64,000 bases of DNA from Octopus vulgaris (taxonomy: Eukaryota). The notes below the pieces were generated by a model that ran no database searches, was not told where the DNA came from, and saw only the letters and a program-made list of their open reading frames with translations. The stretch is taken from contig OX597815.1 of the NCBI GenBank assembly GCA_951406725.2, positions 210,366,001 to 210,430,000 of the forward strand, given 5' to 3'. Position numbers and translations under genes: made by a program. Below, piece after piece: positions 1 through 59,324 of this stretch (its first letter is position 1; every line of letters begins with the position of its first letter).

Positions 1-864
1 ATTCGGCCTCGATAAATGTGCAAAGGCTACCTTTATCAAAGGAAAAAATGACAGAAACATCTAACGTTAACCTTGACCAACAGAATGTCATAAAAGAACT
101 AGACCCAGCGGAGAGCTACAAGTACCTAGGGATAATTGAAGGGAACGGAATAAGGCATTCAGAGATGAAGGAAAGGATCAGGAGAGAATGCTATCGAAGA
201 GTGAGAGCAATACTCAAGACAGAGCTGAATGCAAGAAACAGGATCGAAGCAATCAATGCATTAGCTATACCAGTCGTGACTTACAGTTTCAATATTGTTA
301 ACAGGTCAATTACTGAAATATGTCAGCTCGACAGAAAAATAAGGAAACTGTTGACAATGCATAGAATGCACCACCCTAAGGCAGATACAGAACGACTCTA
401 TCTGCCAAGAAAAGAGGGAGGCCGTGGTCTTTTGCAACTGGCAATAACAATGAAGATTGCTACAATTGGCCTAGACACCTACCTGAAAAACTCTGAGGAC
501 TGGATGCTAAAACTTGTCTCAAAACATGAAAACAAGAAAGCATCATACTCAGTCACAAAACAGGCAAAGGAATATCTAAGTGAATTCCGAATACAACCAA
601 TTTCGGAGATAGATATACAAGAAACAAGCACAGAAAAAGCTAGGCGCATGAAAACCCGTGCCAAAACTGCGGCCTTAGATATTCTGAATAATAAATGGCA
701 AGAAAAACCTCTCTATGGCAAATACCCAAAGAGAGCGAATAATGCAGATATCGACAAAGCCCTGACCCATCAATGGCTAATGGCCTCTGGCTTAAAATCT
801 GAAACAGAGGGGTTTATCATAGCAGCTCAAGATCAATGCCTACCAACAAGAAACTACCAGGCCA
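1..864 (+). mobile_element. Partial copy of the R4/Dong-type RLE retrotransposon (RT C-terminal region), truncated by the assembly gap
   Basis: Matches 5580-6442 by eye except one extra A in a homopolymer (ggaaaaaatg vs ggaaaaatg), which frameshifts the start of ORF 18..974. Ends at the N run. Confidence 0.92.
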
Positions 865-6100: not shown

Positions 6101-7272
6101 AACATGAAAACAAGAAAGCATCATACTCAGTCACAAAACAGGCAAAGGAATATCTAAGTGAATTCCGAATACAACCAATTTCGGAGATAGATATACAAGA
6201 AACAAGCACAGAAAAAGCTAGGCGCATGAAAACCCGTGCCAAAACTGCGGCCTTAGATATTCTGAATAATAAATGGCAAGAAAAACCTCTCTATGGCAAA
6301 TACCCAAAGAGAGCGAATAATGCAGATATCGACAAAGCCCTGACCCATCAATGGCTAATGGCCTCTGGCTTAAAATCTGAAACAGAGGGGTTTATCATAG
6401 CAGCTCAAGATCAATGCCTACCAACAAGAAACTACCAGGCCAACATATTAAAGATCAGAAGCAGTCCAACGTGTCGTGTATGCAAGCAACAAAATGAAAC
6501 CATTGACCATGTGGTCTCCAAGTGCAGTCTTCTAGCGCCTACAGAGTATCTCAACAGGCACGATAGAGCTGCACAATATATTCACTGGGTAATCTGTAAA
6601 AACCTGGATTTGCCCCATGAAAAAAACTGGTGGGAACACAAACCACCCCCAGTGCTTGAAAATGACCACATCTCACTCCTCTGGAACTTCACCATTCAAA
6701 CTGACAGGAAGATAGATGCAAATAGGCCAGACATCATATTGAAAAACTTCAAACAAAGAACATGCCTCCTCATTGATATGACTGTCCCAATCGATATAAA
6801 CGTATCTGTCAAGACCTACCAAAACCTGAGCAAATATAAAGATCTTGAAATAGAAATCAGCAAAATGTGGAAGCTGAAGACTAAAACAATACCTGTTGTC
6901 ATAGGTGCCCTGGGAATGATAGCAAAAGGGGCTGATAGCTACCTAACTCAGATACCAGGAAACCCAAAAATGGCAGAAGTTCAAAAGATAGTGCTCATGG
7001 GAACTGCTCATATCCTACGCAAAATACTCTCTATGTAATCTCAAGGTTTAAAACAAACATAATTTTCGGTTTAAAAAAAAAAAAAAAAAAATTTTTTTTT
7101 TCTTTTTAGACATTCATTAGTACAACATCCCCACCCCCCAAATATATGGCACACTAGGCATAACAACAACATGAACTTCCAACCCTGTTGTCTCTTGAGG
7201 TCTCTGGGTGAGACTTGGAGCCAACTTGTACAAATATAAAGCAAAAGTCAAACATAGAATAATAATAATAAT
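3114..7272 (+). mobile_element. R4/Dong-clade non-LTR retrotransposon with restriction-like endonuclease, apparently full length
   Basis: Single long ORF and ~220-nt 3' UTR ending in (AAT)n at ~7258-7272. The 5' end follows a TAA-rich tract (..gtaataacaataataa). Dong-type elements are known to insert in TAA repeats. 5' boundary approximate. Confidence 0.88.
3241..7038 (+). CDS. Reverse transcriptase / restriction-like endonuclease polyprotein (1265 aa), uninterrupted
   Basis: RT motifs WKSPGKD, NYRPITCL, WIDYKKAFDSLPH, GIFQGDSLSPLLF, HLVYMDDLKLF, YKYLG, LYLPRKEGGRGL. C-terminal CCHC (CRVC..ETIDHVVSKC), RHD, RPDI, D..VP and KYKDL of the RLE domain. Confidence 0.95.
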   Translation: MSGDKTINKKNTDEYRSASLKKRRYEQCLHVVNPKLTDPSPNIRMDARHASRSTNQTINRIGHCADYKRPRTRKLNQILIEKSVTGSNLPNTQELDEPHNRNIPTDGHPCSSPNNQKKKKEKWSREDNKEVLEAFYHAIYFPTDKSSTVQAYLNWRQKHPEVRPYIDSNKLANVRRNIIKKKLLTEVEIDQVRQAISDKMNEAAAREDNTEEMIIDQPRADKNEERIERVSISDRQSEIRPEPIINTKTDEHQIDKESHTNIDPTELHELKNQIMIEWLKIKETSMDERDTLPKIRNSNQNMKIIGKIRLALKDIISVNDVDITNLNHLYYASAKISTILCGVKIRKRQQSHKKPSWQERLQQQIKIFRSDIEYLKNLKAHKITKPTKTQKLLKKYNMKTILDIDATIETIKQKVSAKAARIARYEKRVRFFKDNNMFKNNTKNFYRKIGKTAFTAGSVPSKEEVQRFWNKIWAEEKTHNEKAPWIDRISTEEQKWEGVKVEDIRSALRRSSKWKSPGKDKIPNFWLNAFPESHELLTELYNDVLQHPSRMPPWLVNGLTFLLPKSEETNEPKNYRPITCLTTMYKTLTSVLTEYTYSFLTDSSIFPNEQKGCKRGSYGCKDQLLINKMILEDCHKRHKNLSIAWIDYKKAFDSLPHSWIRKCLEMYKIAPTLRNFLTVSMRSWRTTLTLNSDSEFLNAGDVKISCGIFQGDSLSPLLFCLSLIPLSKLLNDAQYGYKMFDKNINHLVYMDDLKLFAKNDQQLKGLLAIVKQFSDDIRMQFGLDKCAKATFIKGKMTETSNVNLDQQNVIKELDPAESYKYLGIIEGNGIRHSEMKERIRRECYRRVRAILKTELNARNRIEAINALAIPVVTYSFNIVNRSITEICQLDRKIRKLLTMHRMHHPKADTERLYLPRKEGGRGLLQLAITMKIATIGLDTYLKNSEDWMLKLVSKHENKKASYSVTKQAKEYLSEFRIQPISEIDIQETSTEKARRMKTRAKTAALDILNNKWQEKPLYGKYPKRANNADIDKALTHQWLMASGLKSETEGFIIAAQDQCLPTRNYQANILKIRSSPTCRVCKQQNETIDHVVSKCSLLAPTEYLNRHDRAAQYIHWVICKNLDLPHEKNWWEHKPPPVLENDHISLLWNFTIQTDRKIDANRPDIILKNFKQRTCLLIDMTVPIDINVSVKTYQNLSKYKDLEIEISKMWKLKTKTIPVVIGALGMIAKGADSYLTQIPGNPKMAEVQKIVLMGTAHILRKILSM

Positions 7273-11568: not shown

Positions 11569-12858
11569 TAATCGGTTGTCGAGTATGAAATTTGTTGTAA
11601 GGTATATGGTAAACTTTGAGAGCTGCTCATTTTGCGACATTATTATATTTTAACAATCTTTATTTTTTGTTAGAAAGTTGACACCTCCATTTCTTTATTC
11701 TAACTCATTTTGCGCTTTGTACAGTATTTAGAAATCGTTTTTTGCTATTTTTGTCTAGTGATGTATAAGTCAGAACTTCGTACAGTTTTGAAATATGAGC
11801 CCTTTCTTGGAAATACAGCATCACAGACAGTTCGAAATATTAATGGAGTATTTCATTCTAATGTTATTACACAGTAGACAGTATCAAATCGGTTTGCAAA
11901 ATTTCGTTCTAGTAAGTTTGACCTCACAAATGAGCAACCCGGTCGATCAGAAATAAATGTGGATAATGACAAACTGAAAGCCACTGTCGAGTCAGATCCA
12001 TCTCAAAGGGCCCGTAAATTGTCGTTGTTGTTTGCAGTTAGCGAGCAAACAATATTGACTCACCTAGTTTAAATCGGTAAAGTGAAAAAGTTGGTTAAGC
12101 GGGTTCGACATGAACTCAATGAAAATCAAAAACAGCAACGCTTGGAAGCCTGCATTATGCTACTTTCCTGACACAAAAATGAATAATTTGAGAATCGAAT
12201 TGTAAGATGTGATGAGAAATGGATCCAATACAACAACCGTAAACGTTCAGCACAATGGTTGGACAAAGATTAGCCATCAAAACAGATTCCAAAAGGCAAA
12301 TTCATTGAAAGAAGATGATGGTGTGTGTTTGGTGGTCTGGTGCAGGTGTGATCCATTATGATTTCCTTAAACCTGGCTCATCAATCACGGCTGAAATATA
12401 CCGCAGCCAGCTGGACCAAATGATGCAGAAACTTACAAACAAATAGTTTAGGTTAATCAACAGATCCACTCCTATTATATTGGAAGACAACGTCAGACCA
12501 CACATCGCAAAACTGACATTGGCGAAACTACAAGAGTTGCAGTTGGAAGTTATCCATCATCCACCATACTCACCTGATCTTGCCCCCACTGACTACCACT
12601 TCTTTCAGAACTTGGATAACTTTTTGATAGGAAAAAATAAATTTAATTCTGTCGATGCTGTAAAACAGACATTCCAAGATTTTATTGACTCTAGATTGCC
12701 AGAATTTTACTTTTACAGTTCCGTGCTGGACAAGCTACCATTGACACGTGTATTGACTATATGGGTGCATACTTTGATGAATAAATATACTCCTTGTATT
12801 TATAAAACATTAACAAACATTTTTCTTTTGTACAAATTTCATATTTGACGACCTAATA
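11569..12858 (+). mobile_element. Decayed mariner (DD34D) DNA transposon
   Basis: ~25-bp imperfect TIRs (taatcggttgtcgagtatgaaattt / aaatttcatatttgacgacctaata). Transposase relic from 11761 (MYKSELRTVLKYE) with RVRHEL (cf. WVPHEL), CDEKWI, EDNVRPH and PPYSPDLAPTDYHFF; many stops. Confidence 0.9.
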
Positions 12859-17723: not shown

Positions 17724-18918
17724 GTACTCTTTAACTTTCTTACTTAGCATCATAGCATCATAATTTTTAAATATCTATAAAACTGTCGAAAGCTTTTATA
17801 TTTTTACGCTTTTTTATTTATTATTAGTGTTGCTTAATACTTTTTGCTAAACATGCTGCTTCTTTTCAGATACCATCAGAAAAAGGTAATTAAAATTCAT
17901 TAAAATGACAGATTTATCGAACTTTCAAAGAGGTCAAATCGTTTGTACTCGTATGGCAGGCGCTAGGGTAACGGAAACAGCCGAAATGTTTCGTGTATGA
18001 AGAAGTACTGTCTCGAAAGTAATGACAGTCTTTGAGAAAGAGGGAACAACCTCTTCGTCGAAACAAAACTCCGGAAGAAAAACCAAACCATTCAGATAGG
18101 GACCGTCAGAATATTACGCGAATTGTTAGAAAGGATCACAAAAGAACTGCTTCCAAAATTACTGTAGAGCTTAATGACCACCGAGAGAACCCAGTTTCCA
18201 CAAATGCTGTTCGCCGGGAGCTGCACAAAGCCGGATTTCACGGGGGGTTGCAATCAGAAACCTACTAATTTCAAAAACAAACGTTTCAAAGCGTTTAGAG
18301 TGGAGTAAAAACCTAAAGAATTGGTCTTTAGAGCAGTGAAAGAATGTTATTTCCTTGGACGAATCATCCTTTACCTTATTTCCGACCACCGGCTGAGTAC
18401 ACGTGTAGAGACCACCAAAAGAAGCATCTGACATAGACTGCCTTCTTCCAACTGTTAAAGATGGAGGGGGATCTGTGATTATTGGGGCGGGGGGAGGGCT
18501 ATATCTTGGAAATCGTATACTTGCGAAACAGTTTCCGGAGGGTAATGCCATCTTTCAGGTTGATAATGCACCAATTCACACAGCTAAATTTGTTATTGAA
18601 TGGCACGAGGAACATTCTAGTGAAGTTGAATATCTTATCTGGCCACCAGAGTCAGCAGATCTCAATATTATTGAACATTTATGGTGCACTTTAGAAAAGC
18701 AAGGAGTTGATCTCCTCCACCGTCACCACTACAAAACCTGGAGATTATTTTAACTGAAGAAGGGACAAAAAATTCCTTTGGAAATAATTCAAACTTTGTA
18801 CGAGTCCATACCCCGTAGAATTCAAGATGCAATTACTGCCAAAGGCGGTCCTACCCCATATTAAAATATATTTGTTTCAAATTTTAAGATGCTTAGGTTA
18901 TTTTGTCCAACCCCTGTA
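17722..18918 (+). mobile_element. Decayed Tc1-like (DD34E) transposon; 5' TIR lost next to a TA tract; internal deletion
   Basis: From 17905 MTDLSNFQRGQIVCTRMAGARVTETAEMF..., then DES, FQVDNAPIH, WPPESADLNIIEHLW, KGGPTPY* (18864). 3' end ttttgtccaacccctg followed by TA. Confidence 0.9.
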
Positions 18919-22859: not shown

Positions 22860-23072
22860 TTGAAAATTTGGCACAAAGCCAGTAGTTTTCTGGTAGCGAG
22901 TAAGTCGATTACATCGACCCCCAATGTTCAACAGGTGTACTTATTTTATCACCCGCGCGTGGATAAAAGGTAAAATCGTTCTCGAAGAATTCTAACTCAG
23001 AGCATAAAGACGAATGAAATACTGCTAAACATTTTGTCCGGCGTGCTGACGATTCTGTCAGCTCACCGCCTT
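22860..23072 (-). mobile_element. Diverged tRNA-derived Nin/Deu-domain-like SINE (family C)
   Basis: Reverse complement resembles 37923-38155 (head ggcgg.gagctgacagaatcgtcagcacgccgg; ggggtcgatgtaatcgactta). Confidence 0.75.
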
Positions 23073-24758: not shown

Positions 24759-27611
24759 TAGAGTGACCCTTACAATAGGTAAATTTTCGAAAGTTAAAAT
24801 TTTACTGCTCCCATCCCCTTAATCCTGCTCCAATAGAGATAAAAACGAGGTGTGTAACATCTCAGCTTAATCGGACAACTGTTAAGCGATTATCAAACAC
24901 ATTTAGTTTTGTTCAAAAGCGGTATACTATTCCCTTTTTCGGCTATTTTCTTTATTCTTTTTAGAGAAATTTATGTGGACACATCCAGGCAACCCCAACA
25001 GATGTTTAAAAACGTTTTGAATCAAATTTACTAATAGCTAATTTGAAAAATTCCTGAAATAAATGATAAACTTAAGAAATAGTAGGTTTTCTTAATAAAG
25101 CACACAACTATAAGAGAAACGCATTTTTATTCTCAACAATAATTTCTATAGAATCAAAAGCCTGATGTGAACACTGAACATTGAAGTTTGAACATTATTT
25201 TTGCATAAGAGAAGATTTAGTGGTAGTTGTGTATATTTTACTGTAATGGTCTTTAAAAAAATTGTTTCTTAGTTTCATCTTTTGTGAAAATGCTATTGTA
25301 ATCCTAAATGAGTTTGACATCTTTTTTCTGTAACATCATTCACAACTGTCTTCTCAAGTTTTCCAAGTCCAGTTTTGTAACTAGGGTCATCCTTCCATGT
25401 TGAAGGGTCTTTGTCGAGGAAATCAATGCTGATAGAAAATCTCGTGAAGAAAGATTTTGTACCAGGTGTTACAAAAGACGAAATCTCAAAATTTATAAAG
25501 GAAGAAAAGACATTTTGGTGCAGAATGTACCTCTTCAGTTGATTTTTTTCTTCTTCCTTTTTTTCACCTGCTTGAGCAATATTTGCCTTAACCTCTGTTG
25601 AAACATTGTCATCAAATATGCATACAGCCACACCTTCGAGAGCTAAATCCTAGAGATGTTTGGAAATTTTTTTCGTTGCAGCCTTACTGATTTCTGCATC
25701 AATTTCTTTATAACTAATTAGTTGAAGCATGAATAGGAAATCATAATAAGATGCTTACTGGTTTCTTATGATAGAAAGCAGGCTCGAACATACACTCGAA
25801 CAAGAAAAATAAATATTCTTCTTAAAGCGTTCTTCTTCCCAGGAGAAAACTAAAATTGATCTTGAAACAGGTATATCTGGAATGCGTAAATTGCTTTTGA
25901 CATTCACCTAGCAAGACTTACAGCTCCTGGTGTACGAAACGATATTCCGTTCATCAGAATGCCGCCAAGAAAGGTCATCGTAACTCCAAAACTTCTCGGT
26001 AATCATTTCGCTGTTGTTTCTGCGTAGAAAGGTGGTATTCATGAAATCCAAGAATGGCAGAGCGGACATCATCAGGCAATCTATTACTACCAGTTATGTA
26101 AACCTTCTTGTGAGTTTCGTCTAGGTTTCTTTAAATCTTTTGAAAAACACTATGCCTGGACCAGAAGTTGCATCCATCGGTAAATCAAAACAACTCCTAA
26201 AAACTATCTCAAAAACATGTTGACAGCAAGGAAAGTACAACAGGTCGTGATTGAACAGTCTTTCTAGATTTATACAGGCACCATTTCCTCCACCTGCGTT
26301 GCTTACTGTCGTATCACAGCAGAGTGTCTGAATTTTGTCGGTTATACCCCGCTTTCCCACTGCTTGGTAAACAGCCATGGCTTACTGCTCTCCTGAAGAC
26401 ATTGCCTTGAAAAGTTGCTATTATTTCCAGTCTATCAAGTGCTGAGAGGAACTTTCCATCTCAGTGCAAACACTAATTCTTCACAGTCGTTTAGGTTAAA
26501 TTTGTGCTGTATTTCTGTGTGTTGCTTCTCTAAATTTTGTTCTAAGTCGTGAAAATAAGTGTACAAATCAAATCTTTATATATAAAAGTGAGGTTGTGTG
26601 CTGTCTGTCTCCTATGATTTAGATTCCTAACTACTCCCACATTTTGCGGTGCAGTTTAACCAAAACCAGGTATCTTATAGTCGTGATTCATATCGAGCCC
26701 TTCTGAGTATTAGCGCGCGTCTACGATGAGTCTACGATTAAAAAAAAAACAATTACCATTAATTTTTCCCATTTTTCAATGCATTTTTGGCATATATAAG
26801 GGAAGTAACTCTCTAAAAATTTATTATTAAATCTCAGAACGTAAAAAGCTACAGTAACCCCCCCCTTGAGGTTAGCCATATTGAGATGGCTATTATACTT
26901 TACATGTCTAAAAGTGCTTATATAGTTATTTCCCTTACAAACCCGAGCAACGCCGGGCGATACTGCTAGCAACATTATAAAAACGGAGAGGTTATAAATA
27001 TAGCATTACAACTTTGTCAGGGCTACCAACACAACATGGGAAAATCTATATCATAATTCGCAACAACAAAATGAATGAATGCTTACAAGTTATTACAAAT
27101 AAATTAACTTATATTTACAAACGCGGACAAGTCTTATTAGTTTACTGTTTATTACAAATGTATATTTCTTGATATTTTATTTCTCTCCATTACCATTAGG
27201 TGCAGTACATTTCTTTCAATGGACGAACGCAACTCACTACCTCATTCGCTCATGGCTAGCCGCCGACTGAATGACGGCGAAAAAGAGGTGTTTGCCCTGT
27301 ATCTGTGCTCTGTCTTCAGCATTGCCAGTTGCCTTCCCCATTATATTTATTGACACTTATACTGCCATTACCAAGAATAACTCTGAACGAGTTTTTAATT
27401 TAAGAGAAAATTATATTAGAGAAAAACATTTTATCAGAAAAAACAAAATGACTTTCCGGGCGAAAACTTCAAAATTTCATAGTCGATGAGGGTCGCCTTG
27501 CTTTTGTTCGATTGAGCTAAAATTTTGCATAGATAGTTACTTTGATAATTGGAACAAGATATGGTGGTGGGAGCTAGTCTTTTAGAAAGTTGAAAAATAA
27601 TGGCCACTCTA
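24759..27611 (-). mobile_element. Decayed hAT-superfamily (hATm-like) DNA transposon
   Basis: Termini tagagtgacc / ggccactcta. Minus-strand transposase relics CCDTTVSNAG..GACINLERLFNHDLLYFPCCQHVFE (cf. DTTASNTG...ACRHH), TSGP..FKRFK and VVNDVTE. No clear TSD. Confidence 0.7.
26573..26969 (+). mobile_element. Non-autonomous Helitron nested in the hAT-like element
   Basis: 5' A|TCtttatatataaaag; 3' GC-rich hairpin cccgagcaacgccggg followed by ...tgCTAG; no TSD. Confidence 0.8.
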
Positions 27612-36024: not shown

Positions 36025-36439
36025 TTTGTCTGTGTTAACTATATTTCAAAGACGGAGTCTTGTATCTTTGTTGGAAACCCGCTCCCTCCTCAGTGATGCA
36101 TGTATGTATACATATATGTATACAAACTTGTTACCAGCTCAAATAAGCTTGAGGCATATTGGAACCCGCAAGAAAGTCATTCACTGTATTTCGTTATGGA
36201 GAATATTTCTCGATGACAAGTTGTTGTAAATAGAGCAAGTCAGCTCAGAGCGTTCCATAACGAGATTATTGGATGCATGCAATGACTATTTCGGAGAGGT
36301 TATCTCCTCTCAGAAACAGAGGTCCGAAGGGTAGACGCTGTGAACTGACATTAGAAGTAGGTCCCTCTGATGATATTACCGTCGCGTTCAATGACTAGTT
36401 GCGCTATTCAACGGCTCACTATGAATAAAGTACGTTATT

Positions 36440-37922: not shown

Positions 37923-38367
37923 AAGGCGGCGAGCTGTCAGAATCGTCAGCACGCCGGGCGAAATGCTCAACGGTATTTCGTCTGCCGCTACGTTCTGAGT
38001 TCAAATTCCGCCGAGGTCGACTTTGCCTTTCATCCTTTCGGGATCGATTAAATAAGTACCAGTTACGCACTCGGGTTGATGTAATCGACTTAATCCGTTT
38101 GTCTGTCCTTGATTGTCCCCTCCGTATTTAGCCCCTTGTGGGTAATAAAGAAACAGGGGAGCTTGCAGAATTGTTAGCACACCGGGAAAAAAATCTTAGA
38201 AACATTTTGTCCGTCTTTACATTCTGCGTTCAAATTCCGCCGAGGTCGATTTTACTTTTCAAACTTTCGGATTCGATAAAATAAGTTCCAGTTGCACACT
38301 GGGGTCGATGTAATCAATTTACCCGCTGTCCGAACTTGCGGACCTTGTGCCAAAACTTGAAACGAAT
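37923..38367 (+). mobile_element. Two tandem Nin/Deu-domain-like tRNA SINEs (37923-38155 and 38156-38367; family C)
   Basis: Each has a tRNA-like head, gttcaaattccgccgaggtcga and a cctttcatcctttcgg..cgat.aaataagt.ccag-type domain; the two tails differ. Confidence 0.85.
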
Positions 38368-40626: not shown

Positions 40627-40750
40627 CTAGGCATAAAGCCAGAAATTTTGGGATGAAGGGGCCAGTCAACTAGATTGGCTGCAGTGCACAACTGGTACTT
40701 AATTTATCGACCCCGAAAGGAGGAAAGGCAAAGTCAACCTCGGTGCAATT
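40627..40750 (-). mobile_element. Partial family C SINE
   Basis: ctggtacttaatttatcgaccccgaaagga.gaaaggcaaagtc matches the block at ~56011-56055. Confidence 0.75.
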
Positions 40751-48174: not shown

Positions 48175-50464
48175 ACCTCTCAGAGGTGTACTTTCAAATC
48201 CAGGTAGAGGAAGATTACACATAACTACAAACAATCAATACGCATCGTGGATTGTACAAGTCCAAACGACTACCGTTTGGAGTAAAAGTGGCACCCGCCA
48301 TATTCCAACAAATAATGCATGCAACGTTAAGTGGTTGCAATTTCACCGTCGCATACTTCGATGACAGTTTGATAAGGAGCGAGTCTTGGATGCTACATGT
48401 CGAACACATAATGAAAGTATTCGAGAGAATAAGTGAATGCGGGATAAAACTGACAGAAGAAGAATGGGAATTTTTGAAGGAAAAAAATGAAATACCTAGG
48501 TCAAGTAATCGACGAAAGTGGATGCAGACCGAACCCGACAATCGCGACGGTAATACGAAATATGCCCCCCCCTCCGTCGAACGTAACAATGCTTCCTAGG
48601 CTTCGTAAAAGATTACCAAGTATACATCCCAAATATACATATGGTAAAGGCACCACTTGAGGAATTATTAAAAAGAAAATGCCAAATGTGTTTGGACTGA
48701 GAAATGCCCGAAAGCATTTAATGAGTTAAAAGATGTGTTGACTTCAGACTTGTGTCTTACGCATTTCGACCCAAAGACTAGCTACAAATGCTAGCGATAG
48801 GAGCCGTGCTTCTACACAAGGGTAACGATGGCAGGAGAAAGGCCATAGACCACACATCAAGGACATTACTGCCGGCGGAAAAGAGCTACAGCCAGGTTGA
48901 AAAAGTGGTGTTGGCTATATTGTTTTGTTTTTTTTTGGCGTGCAAACGTTACACAGGTTCATTCACGGCCGATGTTTTTGGTTGCAAATGGACCATAGAC
49001 CTCTAATAAAGATATACGGATCCAAGAAAGGAATCCTGACACATACGGCAAACAGACTGCAACGGTGGAGTACTATTCTATTAAACTACGATTATAGAAT
49101 GGACTATATCTGTCATCAAAAAAGTTGAGGCATGCCAGTGGTCTGTCTAGTTTAATTACGACAAATAACAAACTACTGGAGGACACCGTAATAGCAGCCC
49201 TAAGGGCGGAAGTGGAAACAAAAAAAGTTATGCAGAACATCGTGTGTGATCTATCAGTAACTTTGGAAGAAATAAAAAGAAATGCAAAAAATGACAAATT
49301 TATTAATGAGACAAAAAGAAAACTGTGGTCGACAAAAGGAAATAAAGAAAGGTCTGATGCAAAGAATCGCCAAGGTGTGAGCGTGTACTCTGTATGTGAT
49401 GGTGTACTAATGCACGCTCGGAGGGTAGTCATACCACAAACATTACAGAAGAGAACGCTAAAAGAGTTCCATGTGGAACAACCAAGCATTTTTAGAATGA
49501 AAGCGCTGATGCGAAGTTTCGTATACTGGCGAAGCATGGAAAAGGAAGTTGAAAACCTGGTAAAAGGTTGCAGTGTAGATACACTGACAGCGAAACTACC
49601 AACTAAAAAATGTGAACTTAGGCCTGAAGTGAAAATACCAAGGTTCCGGTTGCATATTAATTTTGCAGGCCCGGTAAATGGATTTTCTTGCGTAATAGTA
49701 GTGGGCAGCTACACAAAATGGCCTGAGGTCGAGAAGTGTAAATGACTAACCTCATATACGGTAATAAACTTTTCTTACACGAGCCGTTTGCAAGATTTGG
49801 TGTACCGGATATAGTAAACGGAACACAGTTTGTATCCTGTGAGTTGAGAAGATACTGTGAGATTTTCACGTTAGATCATAAAACCATAGCACTGTACAAT
49901 CCTAGATCCAATGGAAGGACCGAACGGTTTGTAGACAGCTTTAAGAGAGCTTTAGAGAAAACTAATAAAGTAGCCATTGTTGATGTCTCGATCCAACAAT
50001 TCTTCAAGGCATACAGGGTAACTCCGAATCCAAATGCGCCAGAAGGAAGTCCACTTGCAGAATTAATGTTTGCCAGAAAATTTAAGTCAGTATTTGATAA
50101 ACTGTTAATAGGGAAGGAAAAAATACGTGCTAGTAAAGACATGCCAGTTTTTTTTAGAATCGGTGATAAGGTATATGTAAGAATGGACAAAAATGGCAAG
50201 CAATACTGGGAAGAAGGAGAAATTGTAACATACATAAGAAGAATGAGGTATGATATAAGAAGTAGAAAATGGAATGCAAAGGAGACATAGAAATCAGCTT
50301 AAGGAAAGAGTCATGGTAAAGGAACCAACAAGAGTAGAAATACTGATGAATTGGCTATATGACACTTTACAAGTCCCAACACTGTTACAAGAAGTGGAAA
50401 CCACACGTACAAAGAAAAGGAAGAACACTGAATTCCTAAAAGTAGATCCTAAGAAAGAAAGGAT

Positions 50465-50845: not shown

Positions 50846-52829
50846 GTCCCTAATGATAAGGTGTTTATAAACGTGTGTCGAGAAGACAGTCCCTAGTAAA
50901 TTTTCGGTTTCAATACTTCCTGATGCTTTTCGTATTATGAATTTTGTTTTCTATCACAAATTAAAGAGTAATACTGACCGAAGTAATCCTAATATTCGTG
51001 CATAAGCTACAATGACATTTTTTACATACTGAGCCATTTATCTCGGAATTCTAAATATTCCTTTGCAGCAACTCTCTTCTTCCTTAGTGTTAGATTTTAA
51101 ATTTCGCATCAAAGCGATTATTTTGTAGACAGTTTCTTTTATTATCTCAGACATCGCGCAAAGATTGGTGGTTTTCGTATATGGCAGCAATGGCTTTAAA
51201 AACCTTCTCCTAAGATACCATAGTTCAACAGGATATGTAACATGGCCTTTCTACTGCTATTATTACTATCAGCAGCTTCACGTATCTCAGATCTATGTTA
51301 TTAAGAGTAATAAATAATTTCTTACACGCGATGGACACGACAGGAAAGCTTGTAACAAGCTTCAAACCATTTGACATTAAAGGGTTTCCAAGTCTACAGT
51401 TCAGGTAATGAAGTATTCCCCTGAAGACGACATTTGAGGATCCTTGTCAATAATACCGGAAACTATCTCTGAAGAAGGAACTTTACGACGTGCCAGGCTT
51501 CTAATAAAGGCTAAAAACATCACAAAATCATACGAAGACATTCCACCCATCTCAGCTATTATTGTTCAACACAGAGAAGGTTTTGTTGGTCATTGGTATA
51601 ATGATGAACAACAGACCATAAAAACTTATATTACATTTTGGAGACATCCTCATTCTGGTAGAAGAGAAAAGCAATTCATCTACATTTTTGTTATTAGTAG
51701 AGACACAACAGGAAACTCAGGGACAAGCAAAACTAATGAAAACACAGATTTTTAGTGTAGCGTTGTACGTGAATTCTCGGTTGCGTCACTGGAACAAGAA
51801 TATATCATTGTAGGAAGAACGTGACACAACACAAGCAAATTGGCTTAATTTACTTAATAGAAAACTAGAGAAAGTTTGTCTCAATAAGCTAATGTCATAT
51901 CCTGAGTATTAAAAAAGTTATGTTGTTGTTTTTCACGCAGTATGAACATCAAGCAAATTGACAGCAAATATTTACTCACTCGGGCTTTTAAACCAACAAC
52001 CTTTTGCATTTAAAGTGAACAAATAAATATAATTAAAGTAAAACTTTTAGTATCACTAATATGCTTCAAAGTGTTTCAAGCTCAACTCCCCAAATTACAG
52101 CTTTCTCTCTATAATCCCTCCTTATTTCAAACACTCCTCTTATGAATACACTTATACTTCTCTCTTTCCCCACAATAATTCTAAAGACTTTAGTTCCTTT
52201 TAATGCGTTTTTAATTTTTTATTTTATTTTCTAATGTGTCCTTCCCCTCCGTTAATACCACTCCCCATCTCTCCTCGCGTAGTATTAACACCTACCTTAC
52301 AATTTCGTTCTCTGTTTAAAAAGCATAACATAAAACGCTTCATTTATCCCGTTCTCAATATTTCACATAGTAAAAAGCAAAGATCAATTTATAAGAAGAC
52401 AATAAAAACTTTGTTCAATATTTCTAGTAATTTTTGAGATTTGGTAGAAAAGCTGATGTTGTTATAAATATTATTTAGAGGAAATAATTTTTTCTCAATC
52501 TCCACAGCGACTATTAAGCTCAGCTGAAATATCCCACTATAAAATGTCCCTTTTCTAAAGGAGCAAAAGGAGTCAATATGTTGAAAAGGAACGTGTTAGC
52601 CTGGTCGTGACGTAATCAACTTTTGCATTTATATTTGAACCAGACAATATACAATATCAAACTACTCTACGACTAGTTTGTCCCATTTAATCCAGCATTC
52701 AAAAAATGTAAGGATACGTTATTTTGTCAAGGGATCTCACCACAAATCATTTAGAGGGCTCTAAATATTTCAATATGGATGTATGCAAGTATATATATAT
52801 ATATATATATATAAATATATATTTATATA

Positions 52830-53248
52830 GTGATGCATATATGCCATTTGAATATGGCTAACCCATAAGGGTGGATGCTACTGTAGGATGTAGCCCCAGG
52901 AAGACACCTCCTCCGCTGGCTATAGACACACTATCTGTGTCCTGTCAGTATTTGTGAAGGGGAGTCATCCTCCCCGTCTTCAACACATGATACACACGTA
53001 CCCGAGTCTATAGCCAGCGGGAGGAGGTGTCTTCCTGGGGCTACAAACTACAGTAGCATCCACCCTTAGGGGTTAGCCATATTCAAATGGCATATATGCA
53101 TCACGTTGTGTTACCGCTACTGTTTATAACTCGCTCTGAGATTTATCATTGTTTGATTTCACTTTTTCAATATCAGTGTCAAATCGACACTGGAAAAAGT
53201 ATATGTATTTGTGAAGGGATCTGACTTCTCGTCGACAACCATGATTGT
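52830..53248 (+). repeat. Left part of the hammerhead-containing unit: inverted copy (52830-53007), direct copy (53006-53153), unique part and TSD
   Basis: 52830-53007 is the reverse complement of 58849-59027, and 53006-53153 matches 58929-59076. Confidence 0.92.
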
Positions 53249-53476
53249 TATTCGTCCAGGGACCCCTCTTTCATCTGCGTTTTGAGAATTTTGCTGCCTT
53301 TTTGTTGAGTGAGTTCGTATTTTTTGTTCGTCGTTGTTTGTGTTACTCGTGAATTGAACAGTTGTCCGTTGTGTAACAGTAATTTTCGCCCTACGGGGCG
53401 GAAAATTCTGCGTTTAAGCATTGTCATTACCTTCGAGGTTTTTTTTTTTTAAACATTTGTTCTCATAATTTGAGAA

Positions 53477-54871
53477 ATGGAGTTCGACTTGGCGTCGAGG
53501 AGTGACTTTCCCGTGATGGGAAAAGGTGAACAAAAGGATACCGAAGTCAAAAAACAGTCTTTTTCGGCCGCAGTGGGCGGAACCGTAACGAATGTAGAAT
53601 TCAAGATTGAACAGTTATTTGAATACCGGAACTTGGTAAAAACGGAAGGCAATGAAATTAAACTGGTTCCGCCGAAAGCAAAGGTACAGGAAATAAAGGC
53701 AAAGACAGTTGTATACAAAGTTTATAGCAACAAAGAAAAAAAAATGGATGTCAAGAACGAGATAGTAGAAAAGTGCTTGTCCCCGGTGTGGAACAAAATT
53801 CGCCACGTTGTTCGAGGTGCTCGCAGCGCTACCGTTGAAGCACATTTCGACTCGGCTGATGTGGCAAGAGAGGTGTCATCAATGACCTTGAAAAGTGAGG
53901 ATATCATGTTGCTACCTTCGTATATGGGGAAAAGAACAGCCAAACTACATGTAGAGGATATACCAAGAGGGTATGATATAATGTGGGTAGCAGCGGCAGT
54001 CCTGCACAATGTAGAGCGGGAAGTTTCAATTCTGCAGATGAGAAGGAAAGAGGAGGTGCACTGGAAAGGACAAGCGCTAGAACTCCTCGTTCAAGCAGAA
54101 AATATGATACTAGAAAACTTACCCGATAGGGTATTTAATGAGGAGGGAATTTCAATGAGAGTGTCAGTGGAGGGGCGCAGACCTAGGTGCTTCAAATGTG
54201 GCGAAAAGGGTCACGTCCGCTCAAACTGCATAAAAAAAAGAAAATCAACGAAGCCCCTCCTCAAAGTGCTTCAAACACTGAAAAAGAAAAGGTGGAAAAA
54301 GAACCCAAGACTGCGACAAGGAAAGGAACCGAAACGGAAGATGAAAATGAACAGATGGAATATACACAGGTGACACACAAAAGAAAAAAGATAACACCCT
54401 GGACTCCCCTCCCCAAACAAAGAAAAAAATCAGCAAACACCGCAGAGATACATACAAAACAAATTCCCCAGCCCTACCCCCACGGCACTGTATTCATTGG
54501 AACACAGTTCGCCAAGCCCCTCCCCATAAAACAAGATTTGAAAAAATTGATAAAAAAAAATGAAAAGATTATAGCATTTGACGAGAAGAACGATAGGGTG
54601 TACAAGTATTTCAAATTTTCAAAATTTAAACTATTCAGTAAGTCTACAGACACAAAATCAACCACTCGCTTGAGGAAGACGAGTAGAAGGAAAAAACACT
54701 ACAAGAACATTTAAAGAATAATCTTATCAGAGATGTAACGAATGAAATACTGGAGGGTAAACTCATTATAACCCCGGCAACCACACCTACCCAGAGCCCG
54801 ATGGCAACGCCGGTTAAGAGCCCTGCAGCTACGACCACAAGGGAGGAAGAAGGGGAAGCAGGCAGATTTAA
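53477..54871 (+). pseudogene. ORF1 (gag-like, CCHC zinc knuckle), frameshifted
   Basis: SFSAAV motif and EGRRPRCFKCGEKGHVRSNC. Apparent frameshift in the A-run at ~54232-54244, continuing as ORF 54187..54714 and probably further; end approximate. Confidence 0.8.
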
Positions 54872-54926
54872 ACTGTCATGCTCCCTGTCCCAACCGTAAG
54901 TTTATTTATTTTTTCTCTCTCCGACA

Positions 54927-57900
54927 ATGGCAAAGCTGGGTTGTGTGAATGTGCGTGGAATGGGGTCGAAATGGAAACAAATTTGTTTCCTGAACGACCT
55001 CACGACACACGGAGTGGACGTAGCTATTGTAACCGAGTCCAAGATGAAAGGGGCCCAAGCGTTCTCGCCTCTTCTAAATGGTTTCGAGAAATTTATTTCT
55101 CCTAGCCGAGGAAGAGGAAGAGGCGTGGCAGTCCTTATCAGGAAGAGCTTGGACTTTCAGGTAAGTACTGTCTTTCTGGACCCAGAAGGCAGGCTTGTCG
55201 TTCTGGATGTGACCCACGTAAGTAAACAGTCCTTCGGGTTGGTAGCTGTCTACGCTCCGAATGAGTGTAGGCAGGCGGGTTTTTTTCGGAATCTGGAGCA
55301 CTTTTGAGCGACGTCGAAAACGGTAGTCTTAGTAGGGGACTTTAACACTGTCCTTGAAGCGCGGGTCGACAGTGTTGGCTCAACCAATAGGAAGGGGAAA
55401 CATAGCCTCAAGGGTCTACTAGAGAGCTTTGATCTAGTGGACCGTTATCGACTGGATGAGCCGGGCGTTCCACAGTGGACGTAGAGTAACAACGACGACT
55501 CACACAGATCGTATATAGATAGGATATTCGTTAGGAAAAGAGATAAGGATACGTTTAGTTGTCCACAGTTTCACATTGTGCCTTACACGGATCACAAATT
55601 TGTGACTTGTAGGGTGCAATTAGATAAGTGCCATAGACAGGGACCCGGGTACTGGAAGCTGAACAAGTCTATTTTGAATTGTGAAGACTTCCGTACCCGG
55701 ATTAAGGTGTTAGTACAGAGGGCATTGTATGGCACCACCATTAACAATAGATGGTGGCACTCCCTCAAAAGAGCCATTCGTTCAGAGTCCATTAGATTTA
55801 GCAATCAGCTAAGGTTAGATAGGTCTAGGATAGAGGACGATTTAGTTAAGAATCTAAACGAGGCAATGGAAGCTGGCTCTGCATCCGGAGTGATGGCGGC
55901 AAGGACGGTATTGTACCTATTTCTTTATTACCCACAAGGGGCTAAACATAGAGGGGACAAACAAGGACAGACATAGGTATTAAGTCGATTACATCGACCC
56001 CAGTGCATAACTGGTACTTAATTTATCGACCCCGAAAGGATGAAAGGCAAAGTCGACCTCGGCGGAATTTGAACTCACAACGTAACGCAGACGAAATACC
56101 GCTAAGCATTTCGCCCGGCGTGCTAACGTTTCTGCCAGCTATTGTACCGTCACCTTAACTCCAAACACGAAGCTTGCAGAGTTAGAGCTAAGCTACGCGC
56201 TGGGAAACGAGAAGGTATTAACGTTGCCGGATGGGCCCGTCGAGTGGAGAGTCAGAGAGGTAACAAAGCTTCAATCAAGTCTTTAACTGACGAACAGGGA
56301 CAATAGATCTATGGACAGGAGGAGATGCAAAAGTTTCTTCACCAGCATTTCGCCCGCGCGTTCGGGGGTGGTGTGGCGCCGGAGTGGGGGGGCCTTAAAG
56401 GACTTCCTAGCCGGCGGACCGCGGCTCTCGGGGCGTGAGGTGGAGTGCTGTGAAGGAGCGATCACTCCCGCGGAGATAGAGGGGGTACTGGCCGGATGCG
56501 CCGGGGAGAAGTCGCCGGGGTTGGATGGTCTGCCCTACGAGCTTTACCAAAGTATGCCAGACTTGTTCGGGGGAATATTGGCAGGCGTCTACGCGAACTG
56601 GCAGCAGAATGGGAGAATTCCCAGTTCTGTAAGCCGGGGAGTGGTGACGCTAATCCAGAAAGACCCGAGCAAGGGGGATAACATTAGTAATTACAGGCCC
56701 ATAACTCTACTTAACGTAGAGTTAAAGATTTTGGCCAAGGTGTTGGCAAAAAGGTTGACGGTTGTCGTGGAGAAACTTGTAGGGAAAGCACAGACATGTG
56801 CAATTCCAGGCAGGTCGATCCAGGACAATCTTCACCTTATATGCTACACCTTAGATAGGGTGGGTACATTAACCGGCAAGGGCGGGGTAATATCCATTTA
56901 GACCAAAGTAAAGCGTCCGATAGGGTAGACCATAAGTACCTGGCGACGGTCCTCGAAGCGGCTGGACTGGGCCCTGAATTTCGCGGGTGGATCTCCGCTA
57001 TGTATAGCGGCATCAAGTTCACCGTCCAGATAAACGGTTACCTAACGGAACCGTTTTCGATCGAATGTTCAGTTCGTCAAGGGTGCCCCTTGTCACCACT
57101 TTTGTACGTGTTGGCTTTCGAGCCATTGCTGCGAAAGTTGGAGAGGCTGGGAAGTAACTCGGATGAGATCGGAGGTGGGAGGACGGTTACTGCTTATGCG
57201 GATGACGTCACCCTCATCGTATCCAATGAGGCCCAGCTACCTTGTGTAGAAGATGCTATCAGAGGATACGAGGTGGTGGCAAGGAGCAAGGGTTAACAAG
57301 GACAAGTCGGTTGGCTTGCGCCTCGGCACCTGGAGGAGCAAGTCGATATCGTCCAGTGTCGTGGGACACTGGACGGATGGTCCTGTTAAGTTGCTAGGAG
57401 TTTGGTTTGGGTCAGACTCCCAAACGGAGAGGAATTGGAGTGAGGTGACGGACAAGGTGGAGGCCATAGTACGGACCTGGTCCGGAAGGACTCTGTCCTT
57501 GAAAGTAAGGGCGGAGGTGGCACAGATGTTTATTGCATCTGTAATCACTTACCGCCTGACCGCTGTCCCTTGCCCCGATTCATGGCTTAGCAAGTTGGAG
57601 CGAATCCTTTTCCGCTTTTTGTGGAAGGGAGGAAAGCCACTTGTGAGGCACTCCGTTTGCTGCCAGGAACCTTAAAGGGTGGGTTAGGAATGCCTTGGTT
57701 GATGATGCGCAGGCATGCGTTGAGGCTGAAGCATCTCTGGCACCACCTGGAGGGTGATAAGGTGTGGAGTCCGCTGGCAGGGGAATTTTTCCCGAGACCG
57801 GCTTCCTTAGTGAATTTTAAACCCGGTCGCATCAAAAGACGGAATCTGACTTTATGGCAAAAGGAGTGCCGACAGGCACTCACGCTGATCCACAAGGCGG

Positions 57901-58544
57901 GCAAGGCCGGCTGCGAAAATACCACCTCGGTATTTTATAGCAGGCTGGTAGAGGCAAAGAACGACGACGTCCTAGGAGGGGCTCTGGGGTTTGACGAAGA
58001 CCAGCTTACCAACCTGTTTAAAAAGACTTTCAGGACGGGGTATTTGGATAATTTCCAAAGATCCCTGGCCTGGCAGTGTTATAGGAATGCTTTACCTGTT
58101 CGCGAGAAGTTATCGCGGCACGGAATTTCAGTTCCACCGACGTGTCCAAGATGCGGGTTGGACGATGAAACCGTCCAGCACGCTTTTGTACACTGTCGGA
58201 AGTTGTCAGACTTGATAAGTTACGCAGAACACGTGTTATCGCATCTGGGACGAGTACAGCTGTCGGCTGAGTCTATGATTAAGATGATACCGCCAACTGG
58301 ACTCTCGAAGGAAGGTGAGGCATGTTTTCACTGCACGGTTGCAGTAGTAAAAGAATGCATGTGGCGTACAAGAATGGAAGGAGTCGCAATAGGATCCTTT
58401 GTCTCAGGCCCCGGCTTGCTCACTTACTTCAGATATCATCTGAAGAGCAAAATGGGGCTGGAAAAGAAGATCTTACCACGAAGTGTGTATGAAAAAAGAT
58501 GGAAGGAAGTGGCAAAAAAGGTGGGTGTCAGAAACCCTGCTTAA
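54927..58544 (+). pseudogene. ORF2: APE endonuclease + reverse transcriptase + C-terminal CCHC, disrupted
   Basis: APE: CVNVRG, VYAP, GDFN, YIDRI, TDH. RT: KSPGLDGLPYE, YRPITLLN, QGCPLSPLLY, YADD. C-terminal CPRC..ETVQHAFVHC. Contains stops, frameshifts and a SINE insertion. Confidence 0.9.
55918..56139 (-). mobile_element. Family C SINE inserted into Tx1 ORF2, 9-bp TSD
   Basis: TSD tattgtacc at 55909-55917 and 56140-56148; reverse complement matches 37923-38155. Confidence 0.9.
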
Positions 58545-58798
58545 CTATGATGGAGGAGAGGAAAGAAAATCTGCGGGGCCTTATAGGTTGCCGGGGTTTA
58601 AAATATATCGGTAAGATCGCAAGTTAATGTAATGTTGTAATGTTCTATTAGTCAATGCAAAGGACAATTTAAATACAAATTTTGTATAATGAATAATCCA
58701 AATATTATGGAAAATTTTTAATCGAACCACTTAACTGTTTTTTGTATGTATGTCCTGTATTGTCCTATGTAATGATTTTATAATCGTAATAAAGAAAT

Positions 58799-59076
58799 TC
58801 GTCGACAACCATGATTGTCACACGCTGATGAAAGGTAAACACCTTGAAACTCGGGTACGTATGTATCATGTGTTGAAGACGGGGAGGATGACTCCCCTTC
58901 ACAAATACTGACAGGACACAGATAGTGTGTCTATAGCCAGCGGGAGGAGGTGTCTTCCTGGGGCTACAAACTACAGTAGCATCCACCCTTATGGGTTAGC
59001 CATATTCAAATGGCATATATGCATCACGATGTGTTACCGCTACTGTTTATAACTCGCTCTGAGATTTATCATTGTT
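58799..59076 (+). repeat. Right part of the hammerhead-containing unit (retrozyme / Penelope pLTR-like)
   Basis: Contains the TSD, the hammerhead and the segments repeated directly and inverted at 52830-53153; ends at a TA tract. Confidence 0.85.
58819..58863 (+). ncRNA. Minimal type I hammerhead ribozyme
   Basis: Stem I CACACG / CGTATG (CGTGTG in the inverted copy); core CTGATGA (58825-31); stem II AAGGT-aaac-ACCTT; GAAA (58846-49); minimal stem III C-tcgg-G; GUA cleavage triplet with predicted cut after 58857. Confidence 0.85.
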
Positions 59077-59324
59077 ATATTTATATATATATATATATAT
59101 ACTTACATACATACATTAATCCTCCTTCCACCCTCCCTCTACAACGTTCCCGTATTTACTTACTTCTACTTTCTCCATCGTACTTTTCCTCCTCCTTTCT
59201 GCACGCCCTATCCTATAACTTATGTTTCACGTTAGCAGCCCGCATTATCCTGCACCCATTATCAGCTGCAGCCAGATTTTCAAGCTGAGAGGATGTAAAC
59301 TCTGACTTTCTTCTCTTTTTGTCT

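What the first reader, a model, noticed from the sequence alone, without database searches (positions are those of the whole stretch)
53006..59076. Reconstructed ~353-nt retrozyme-like monomer with a minimal hammerhead and rod-like fold
Seen: removing the LINE and one TSD gives a unit of 243 nt (53006-53248) + 110 nt (58819-58928), followed by a 148-nt repeat of its own start (58929-59076), i.e. ~1.4 head-to-tail copies. It is highly self-complementary: gtatttgtgaaggg (53205-18) pairs with cccttcacaaatac (58895-908); cttctcgtc pairs with gacggggag using G:U pairs; caac/gttg and catgat/atcatg also pair. Short hairpins include cagtgtc-aaatc-gacactg, gacaca-gatag-tgtgtc and gccat-attcaa-atggc. 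Stem III is minimal with a near-palindromic CUCGGG. Established: minimal hammerheads with such loops cleave as dimers and mark Penelope pLTRs and tandem non-LTR retrozymes of animals, which yield small circular RNAs. Inference: a non-coding retrozyme family that could produce a ~350-nt circRNA.
Basis: partly seen in the sequence, partly recalled or inferred. Interest (0 to 1): 0.7.

Follow-up and report, generated by a model that had tools for sequence, protein, structure and literature searches.

The report
Two-armed hammerhead retrozyme split by LINE
This is one dead copy of a multi-copy, protein-free 353-base repeat that carries a predicted self-cutting RNA motif; its two back-to-back arms suggest it was likely pasted in by a Penelope-type enzyme, a longer jumping gene later landed inside it, and it is a new member of a known kind of animal genomic parasite.

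Summary
In detail: 243 + 110 nt unit, 148-nt repeat (2 differences), 20-bp LINE duplication, one type I hammerhead. Three corrections. (1) The insertion starts at 52830, not 53006: a 178-nt inverted arm was missed, and the whole (52830-59076) sits in a TA microsatellite with an 11-12-bp duplication. That is the Penelope-type insertion shape. (2) The hammerhead is canonical (helix I 6 bp, II 5 bp, III 2 bp), not the minimal Penelope type; a dimer is still plausible. (3) The circle folds branched (9 hairpins); only the hammerhead domain is rod-like. Public-run contigs show uninterrupted units at hundreds of times single-copy depth, no common variant in the catalytic core, and variants that mostly keep the fold (11 of 13, P about 0.01, post hoc). 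This copy has a private helix I mismatch and a broken Tx1-like LINE inside. Cleavage, expression, circles, tandem arrays, the partner enzyme and LINE site-specificity were not shown. This scan already noted similar retrozymes and retrozyme-targeting LINEs on other DNA of this genome; none matched this family by sequence. Verdict: new member of a known kind.

The parts
52818..52829 (.). Left target-site duplication of the whole insertion (11-12 bp, at the end of a TA microsatellite)
   Evidence: the 12-mer occurs 4 + 7 times on the two strands of the window, so it is informative but not unique
52830..53007 (-). Inverted arm, unit positions 274-353 then 1-99; holds the 3' half of the hammerhead with the intact helix I letter; overlaps the direct arm by 2 nt
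   Evidence: 96-99% identical to 58849-59027
53006..53248 (+). Direct arm, unit positions 1-243; 53205-53248 is the 5' strand of the long helix that extends hammerhead helix I
53229..53248 (+). LINE target-site duplication, upstream copy (20 bp)
53249..58798 (+). Full-length, broken L1/Tx1-like LINE: ORF1 with zinc knuckle (split over two frames), ORF2 with AP endonuclease, RT and zf-RVT; at least 3 stops and 4 frameshifts in ORF2
   Evidence: 28-39% identity to Xenopus Tx1 ORF2, best E 4e-51
55910..56148 (.). Very high-copy SINE-like insertion inside the LINE, with a 9-bp duplication (55909-17 / 56140-48)
   Evidence: SINE-free LINE joint in 3 of 4 runs
58799..58818 (+). LINE target-site duplication, downstream copy
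58819..58864 (+). Type I hammerhead: helix I 58819-24/58858-63 (C-A mismatch at 58861 in this copy), core 58825-31, helix II 58832-45, GAAA 58846-49, helix III 58849-56, predicted cut after 58857, unpaired U1.7 at 58864
58865..58928 (+). Rest of the unit (positions 290-353): 3' strand of the long helix and a small hairpin
58929..59076 (+). Repeat of unit positions 1-148; 59028-59076 is the 49-nt 'tail' present at this end only
59076..59087 (.). Right target-site duplication of the whole insertion

Best explanation
The stretch 52830-59076 is one copy of a multi-copy, non-coding 353-nt repeat with a type I hammerhead motif, laid down as two head-to-head arms in a TA microsatellite, likely by a Penelope-like reverse transcriptase acting in trans, and later split by a now-broken Tx1-like LINE. 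Shown: the anatomy, both duplications, the motif, uninterrupted copies elsewhere, no coding frame. Inferred, step by step: (1) source loci are transcribed into an RNA longer than one unit, or cut and ligated into a 353-nt circle; the long helix around helix I would hold the cut ends together. (2) The Penelope enzyme would nick both strands of AT-rich DNA 11-12 nt apart and start reverse transcription from each end at two internal RNA sites, unit 148 and unit 99. That gives the 501-nt direct arm, the 178-nt inverted arm and the one-sided 49-nt tail; the arms then join by 2 nt of microhomology. Both arms run across the predicted cleavage site, so the template was either uncut precursor or a religated circle. 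(3) In a single unit the core CUGA is predicted to pair with the helix III loop, so cleavage would be weak as a monomer and better when two hammerheads pair through helix III. (4) After insertion the copy drifted by about 1%, gained a helix I mismatch, took the LINE, and the LINE took a SINE. This copy is probably dead.
For: Anatomy. It matches the Penelope pattern of a direct partial tandem, an adjacent inverted 5'-truncated copy, a one-sided tail and a short duplication (PMC8557442, PMC3846280 passages). A purified Penelope-like protein cuts and extends both strands of AT-rich DNA and starts at two internal RNA sites that bound the tail, mainly on uncut RNA (PMC11167929). Family: depth rises from about 3-4 thousand on the LINE tail to 83-191 thousand at 58800-58832 in X1. 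Loose ends before 58799/58802 in X4 and X11 read the upstream unit, not the LINE. A LINE-free joint stands in 3 of 4 runs, one contig each. 58861 is G in more than 99.7% of depth in 3 of 3 runs, giving a perfect 6-bp helix I. No variant of 5% or more falls on 11 invariant core positions; the free core position N7 varies. 11 of 13 common variants are unpaired or keep their pair, against 7.1 expected, P = 0.012. A loose-end consensus of 18 contigs shows a two-sided change in the gccat/atggc hairpin. Longest stop-free frame round the circle is 55 aa (+) and 88 aa (-). Depth at unit 176 is about 61 thousand against a mean of 701 thousand over unit 1-192 in X1, as expected if many copies end near 148 and are 5'-truncated. 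Li et al. 2026 argue that animal retrozymes derive from Penelope pLTRs.
Against: No autonomous Penelope partner was found; none of 55 hand-picked window ORFs hit GIY-YIG, and no genome was available. The absence of core variants is not significant alone (P = 0.47). The 11-of-13 test is post hoc, uses one predicted fold, counts only contigs at 85% identity or more, and 2 variants break pairs. Helix III has pair probability 0.0 and the catalytic fold costs 5.6 kcal/mol over the best fold. The base of helix II is A-U (G.U and U.U in variants), not the G-C typical of canonical hammerheads. Rfam found nothing. The tail is 49 nt, longer than the 30-40 nt reported. That unit 99 and 148 are fixed ends rests on this one copy. 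The high depth on unit 1-148 may come partly from other families; a diverged piece of it lies in an unrelated-looking repeat at 26842-26900. Summed contig depth is not a copy number. The outer duplication lies in TA-rich DNA where such a word recurs.
Confidence: 0.8

Rival explanations
1. The unit is just the terminal repeat (pLTR) of an autonomous Penelope element, and this locus is a heavily truncated or internally deleted insertion of it.
For: Same insertion shape as autonomous elements. The 3' part of the unit is far more abundant than the hammerhead part. Penelope-like families are reported as recently active in an octopus genome (PMC13282606).
Against: The head-to-tail period is 353 nt with no ORF. 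The 243/244 junction is the common form in other runs. The hammerhead is canonical, whereas metazoan Penelope pLTRs usually carry minimal variants. The long helix needs sequence from both sides of the hammerhead within one 353-nt unit.
Confidence: 0.1
2. The unit is a non-autonomous Penelope derivative copied from linear, uncut read-through RNA; the hammerhead is a largely idle passenger and no circle is made. This differs from the best explanation only in step 1.
For: For the purified Penelope-like protein, hammerhead mutants did not affect insertion and uncut RNA was the main template. The monomer is predicted to fold into an inactive form.
Against: Common variants mostly keep the fold. The helix around the cut site is the strongest structure in the unit (z -5.4). 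Mussel units of similar size are abundant circles (PMC7229834 section 14). The inverted and direct arms overlap by 99 nt of unit, which a circle gives simply.
Confidence: 0.3
3. The hammerhead repeats are the ends of the LINE and serve to cut it out of a longer transcript.
For: A hammerhead lies 6 nt past the LINE's downstream duplication.
Against: The LINE has its own 20-bp duplication inside the unit. LINE-free units are about 20-40 times deeper than the LINE tail. No hammerhead core lies upstream of the LINE on its strand in this window.
Confidence: 0.03
4. Assembly artefact or chance structure in an ordinary satellite.
For: The window has one gap (865-964); no listed contig spans the locus.
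Against: The three overlapping copies differ from one another, the duplications are exact, the private 58861 letter has non-zero depth in X1 and X4, and z is -8.2.
Confidence: 0.02

Closest known systems
Animal non-LTR retrozymes (PMC7229834: passages and section 14 seen; mussel 350-390-bp repeats, axolotl)
   Same: Type I hammerhead in a non-coding unit of 353 nt, 43% GC, highly self-paired, many copies, duplication longer than 4 bp; two-pair helix III with a tetraloop, and a U.U variant at the base of helix II as described for axolotl HHR_Amex2.
   Different: This locus has 1.4 units plus an inverted arm, not a tandem array; one hammerhead; expression and circles not shown; unrelated host lineage.
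Penelope-like element insertions (PMC8557442, PMC3846280 passages; PMC11167929 parts 1-2 of 4)
   Same: Partial tandem, adjacent head-to-head inverted truncated copy, one-sided tail, short duplication, AT-rich or TA-repeat target.
   Different: No RT or GIY-YIG ORF; tail 49 nt; canonical rather than minimal hammerhead.
Non-LTR retrozymes as Penelope derivatives (Li, Clavereau, Pollet 2026, 10.64898/2026.07.22.740005; part 1 of 5 and passages seen)
   Same: Proposed origin from pLTRs fits the insertion shape here.
   Different: Their 'active' class needs two consecutive hammerheads; this copy would be a monomer. 'Octopus' and 'Tx1' do not occur in their main text.
Tx1-clade LINEs that target other mobile elements or snRNA genes: Tx1L in Tx1D, Tx1-Mar, Keno (PMC4494074 passages)
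   Same: AP endonuclease + RT LINE related to Xenopus Tx1, full length, sitting in another repeat with a 20-bp duplication.
   Different: Target is a hammerhead repeat; specificity was not shown here; clade was not tested by a tree.

Membership tests
Animal non-LTR retrozyme | Type I hammerhead with the conserved core | tested here: met
   Motif scan and coordinates; no variant of 5% or more on 11 invariant positions in 3 runs. Rfam did not detect it.
Animal non-LTR retrozyme | Non-coding unit of about 150-450 bp, GC under 50% | tested here: met
   353 nt, 43% GC, longest stop-free frame 55/88 aa
Animal non-LTR retrozyme | Many genomic copies | tested here: met
   Depth at 58861 is about 920 (X1) and 485 (X4) times that of the private letter; summed contig depth, so an order of magnitude only
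Animal non-LTR retrozyme | Target duplication longer than 4 bp | tested here: met
   11-12 bp, in TA-rich DNA
Animal non-LTR retrozyme | Tandem copies with two or more consecutive hammerheads somewhere in the family | tested here: inconclusive
   Not at this locus (one complete motif); short contigs cannot show arrays and no genome was held
Animal non-LTR retrozyme | Expressed as linear and circular RNA; self-cleaves | not testable with these tools
   Only contigs were available; they cannot show strand, ends or circles
Minimal Penelope hammerhead (min-HHR, PMC4209133) | No helix III, helix II 7-8 bp, helix I 4-5 bp, extra base before helix II | tested here: not met
   Helix III 2 bp + 4-nt loop, helix II 5 bp, helix I 6 bp in the family, no extra base
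Canonical metazoan type I hammerhead (PMC4209133) | Helix I 6 bp, helix II about 4 bp, helix III 1-2 bp with a small palindromic loop | tested here: met
   6 bp (family), 5 bp with 4-nt loop, 2 bp with an 8-nt fully self-pairing segment
Canonical metazoan type I hammerhead (PMC4209133) | G10.1-C11.1 pair | tested here: not met
   A-U here; G.U and U.U in variants
Canonical metazoan type I hammerhead (PMC4209133) | Loop 1-loop 2 tertiary contacts | tested here: inconclusive
   U1.7 is unpaired and loop 2 is A-rich, the contact described in PMC11875169 passages; not modelled
Penelope-type insertion | Inverted 5'-truncated copy adjacent to the direct copy | tested here: met
   52830-53007, 2-nt overlap
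Penelope-type insertion | Tail at one end only; AT-rich target; short duplication | tested here: met
   49-nt tail (reported 30-40), TA repeat, 11-12 bp
Penelope-type insertion | Autonomous RT + GIY-YIG partner sharing the terminal sequence | not testable with these tools
   No genome; no GIY-YIG among 55 window ORFs scanned
Target-specific Tx1 LINE | AP endonuclease + RT ORF2 related to Tx1 | tested here: met
   Pfam; tblastn of Xenopus Tx1 ORF2. It was the first named hit but ranked 82 of 109 fetched proteins; no tree was built.
Target-specific Tx1 LINE | Same target in more than 20% of copies | tested here: inconclusive
   No loose end behind 58798 among the 18 rows shown, but 142 rows were hidden; one search was swamped by the SINE

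The most novel reading that the evidence does not exclude
This is a further retrozyme family whose insertions are written by both ends of one DNA cut running round a single 353-nt RNA circle from two fixed start points, and whose transcription start is the specific landing site of a Tx1 LINE family that borrows the retrozyme's small-RNA promoter: a parasite of a parasite of Penelope. In addition, the hammerhead would carry a built-in off switch, the core pairing with loop III, that keeps the circle intact until two copies meet. What my calls give: the two-armed shape crossing the cut site twice; LINE 5' and 3' ends at similar depth; TTC kept just before the site in 3 of 3 visible LINE-free variants, with A at 53231 in 2 of them; a TATA-like stretch about 30 nt upstream (read by eye); the predicted inactive fold. 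Specificity, promoter and circle are untested here.
Probability: 0.3. Interest if true: 0.65.

Novelty: new member of a known kind. Interest (0 to 1): 0.38.

Why it matters
How protein-free hammerhead repeats get back into animal genomes has mostly been argued from co-occurrence and phylogeny. An insertion with the complete Penelope footprint (inverted arm, tail, duplication) but no ORF is structural support, and it names two RNA start points that can be tested with a purified Penelope enzyme. My searches found no paper describing cephalopod retrozymes (open-access library only). If the LINE proves specific for this site, hammerhead repeats join the known Tx1 target classes. This copy itself is a dead relic, and the kind of element is well known.

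Tried and rejected
Whole genome: none held, so no copy census, array search or partner search. Rfam: no hammerhead among the 150 of 165 window hits shown and 0 hits on 58780-58960. Exact-pattern scans: 0 loci in metagenome contigs and viral contigs. Sequencing runs: no RNA holder listed; X11 is only a guessed RNA run, so it is not used as evidence of expression. 5 of 24 listed runs were laid. First lay was swamped by the SINE: 1095 joints and 5320 loose ends were hidden, so the tandem joint could not be seen either way. Second lay showed one opposite-strand joint (58895/58951, one contig), not the junction of this copy. Look-ups of earlier notes by sequence found no look-alike for the unit, the LINE DNA or the LINE protein. 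Pair probabilities were mis-indexed and are replaced. The core test used 6 variable sites by mistake; one search uses 7. The sigma-70 scan found nothing and does not apply to an animal. A search for mollusc snRNA promoter sequences gave one paper, on insect telomerase RNA, seen as a listing only, so the promoter idea stayed untested. A second hammerhead-like hit at 36093 (-) has 3-bp stems and very long loops and was set aside as chance. Rejected readings: minimal hammerhead, rod-like circle, repeats as LINE ends.
Full report
Observation. The pieces are as described: 53006-53248 (243 nt), 58819-58928 (110 nt) and 58929-59076, which repeats the first 148 nt with 2 differences. An exact 20-bp duplication brackets 53249-58798. 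The joined 353-nt unit folds as a circle at -124.4 kcal/mol against -85.7 +/- 4.7 for 100 shuffles (z -8.2, none as good); the minus strand gives z -6.1. The fold is branched, with 9 hairpin loops and 60% of bases paired. The signal is concentrated in unit 197-353 (z -5.4; the other parts -2.0 and -2.7), where about 45 imperfect pairs extend hammerhead helix I. So 'rod-like' holds for that domain only.

52830-53007 is the reverse complement of 58849-59027, overlapping the direct arm by 2 nt. The left flank ends, and the right flank begins, with the same 11-12 bases in TA microsatellite; that word occurs 11 times on the two strands of the window, so it is supportive, not proof. The element is therefore one insertion, 52830-59076: an inverted arm of unit 274-353 + 1-99 and a direct arm of unit 1-353 + 1-148, head to head, with 49 nt (unit 100-148) present at the right end only. 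Papers describe this shape for Penelope-like elements: partial tandem, adjacent inverted truncated copy, one-sided 30-40-bp tail, 8-10-bp duplications in the rotifer examples, TA-repeat bias for some clades (PMC8557442 and PMC3846280, passages). A purified Penelope-like protein cuts and extends both strands of AT-rich DNA and starts at two internal RNA sites that bound the tail (PMC11167929, parts 1-2 of 4).

The hammerhead. Core 58825-31, helix II 58832-45, GAAA 58846-49, helix III 58849-56, predicted cut after 58857. Helix I has a C-A mismatch at 58861 in this copy. The inverted arm has G there, and so does more than 99.7% of depth in 3 of 3 runs, so the family has 6 perfect pairs followed by an unpaired U1.7. 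By the definitions of PMC4209133 (passages) this is the canonical metazoan type (helix I 6 bp, II about 4 bp, III 1-2 bp with a palindromic loop), not the minimal type (no helix III, helix II 7-8 bp). It departs from canonical in having A-U, not G-C, at the base of helix II. In the predicted monomer, helix II is certain (0.87-1.0), helix I about 0.6 and helix III 0.0, because core CUGA pairs with the loop III UCGG; the catalytic fold costs 5.6 kcal/mol more. Two helix III segments pair over 8 nt at -8.9 kcal/mol. Rfam did not detect the motif.

The family. No genome was held. 20 of 24 listed runs, from 11 studies, hold part of 52500-53400; I laid 5 of them. In one search, depth in X1 is about 3-4 thousand on the last 33 nt of the LINE and 83-191 thousand from 58800 to 58832. 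Loose ends before the duplication in X4 and X11 read the upstream unit, one of them matching 53202-53230 letter for letter. In one search a contig in each of X1, X3 and X4 (not X5) joins 53216 to 58802 through 15 other letters: a LINE-free variant. Using the private 58861 letter as single-copy depth gives ratios of about 920 (X1) and 485 (X4) for the hammerhead and 66-87 and 34-40 for the LINE tail; these are summed contig depths, not counts. Of 13 common substitutions in 58819-58990 (the two private sites 58861 and 58942 left out), none hits the 11 invariant core positions (P = 0.47 alone), and 11 are unpaired or keep their pair, against 7.1 expected (P = 0.012, post hoc). A loose-end consensus of 18 contigs has GCCAC...GTGG where the window has GCCAT...ATGG, a two-sided change, though those contigs may belong to a sister family. 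Tandem arrays could not be tested with short contigs.

The LINE. 53249-58798 has ORF1 with a zinc knuckle and ORF2 with endonuclease, RT and zf-RVT. Xenopus Tx1 ORF2 aligns at 28-39% identity; unnamed proteins are closer (up to 57%). ORF2 has at least 3 stops, 4 frameshifts and a SINE-like insert with a 9-bp duplication. The order of events is retrozyme, then LINE, then SINE; the retrozyme arms differ from one another by about 1.4-2%. Earlier notes of this scan claim that Tx1 LINEs in this genome target retrozyme start sites and U1/U2 starts. I could not test that: no diverging LINE 3' flank was among the 18 loose ends shown, but 142 were hidden. Hints only: LINE 5' and 3' ends have similar depth; TTC before the site is kept in 3 of 3 visible variants; a TATA-like stretch lies at 53200-53207. 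Its likeness to snRNA promoters is recalled, not tested.

Mechanism. Most likely a Penelope-like enzyme, in trans, primed from both ends of a staggered cut at two internal sites of the retrozyme RNA (inferred). Both arms cross the cleavage site, so the template was uncut precursor or a religated circle; my data do not separate these. Both direct copies share a letter at unit 14 that about 99% of the family lacks, which fits one template read round or one source locus. This copy has one damaged hammerhead and a 5.5-kb insert and is probably dead.

Known and new. It works like, and meets most tested features of, animal non-LTR retrozymes (PMC7229834, passages and section 14), which Li et al. 2026 derive from Penelope pLTRs (part 1 of 5 and passages). 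Arrays, expression and cleavage remain untested, so I file it as a probable new member. No call names the organism; 'octopus-like' comes from earlier notes and recalled repeat types. Searches for cephalopod retrozymes found no describing paper (listings), and an O. vulgaris repeat annotation has no mention of ribozymes in its main text (PMC13282606, passages). Other papers seen as passages: PMC6155905, PMC4494074, PMC11875169. I read no supplements; genome-wide hammerhead tables there may already list cephalopod motifs. The scan had already noted 359-, 360-, 485- and 490-nt retrozymes with the same two-armed shape on other pieces of this genome; none matched this unit by sequence.

Noticed in passing
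window 26573-26969: About 400-bp repeat-like element that starts with TC and ends in a GC hairpin plus CTAG (Helitron-like by recall). At 26842-26900 it holds a diverged copy of the retrozyme's unit 37-95 hairpins (81% over 47 nt, E 1e-4), with the gccat/atggc stem kept. Captured piece or shared origin; one copy in the window.
   Followed up: partly
window 3118-7038: Intact 1306-aa non-LTR ORF with RT and zf-RVT and no AP endonuclease hit, preceded by (TAC)n/(TAA)n repeats; R4/Dong-like by recall. Window 1-864 looks identical by eye to 5580-6443, next to the gap at 865-964.
   Followed up: no
window 52955-52970 region of the inverted arm vs 58861, 58942, 58969-70: The inverted arm differs from the direct copy at three places: G for A at 58861, one base missing near 58942, and TC for AA at 58969-70. 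Both direct copies carry G at unit 14 where about 99% of family depth has T.
   Followed up: partly
window 53217-53231: A LINE-free variant replaces 15 letters of the 5' strand of the long helix. Whether the 3' strand changes with it is not visible; it would be a good covariation test.
   Followed up: no
window 55910-56148, 37932-38321, 22901-23063, 40664-40750: Very high-copy SINE-like family; four more pieces in the window at 76-90% identity.
   Followed up: no
window 48228-49745: Fragments with RT, RNase H and integrase zinc-finger hits: a decayed Ty3-like LTR element.
   Followed up: no
window 12447-12848 and 18409-18750: DDE_3 transposase remnants, Tc1/mariner-like.
   Followed up: no
window 59027 and 59076 (unit 99 and 148): Both arm ends fall in predicted hairpin loops of the unit, loosely like the stem-loop start site reported in PMC11167929.
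   Followed up: partly
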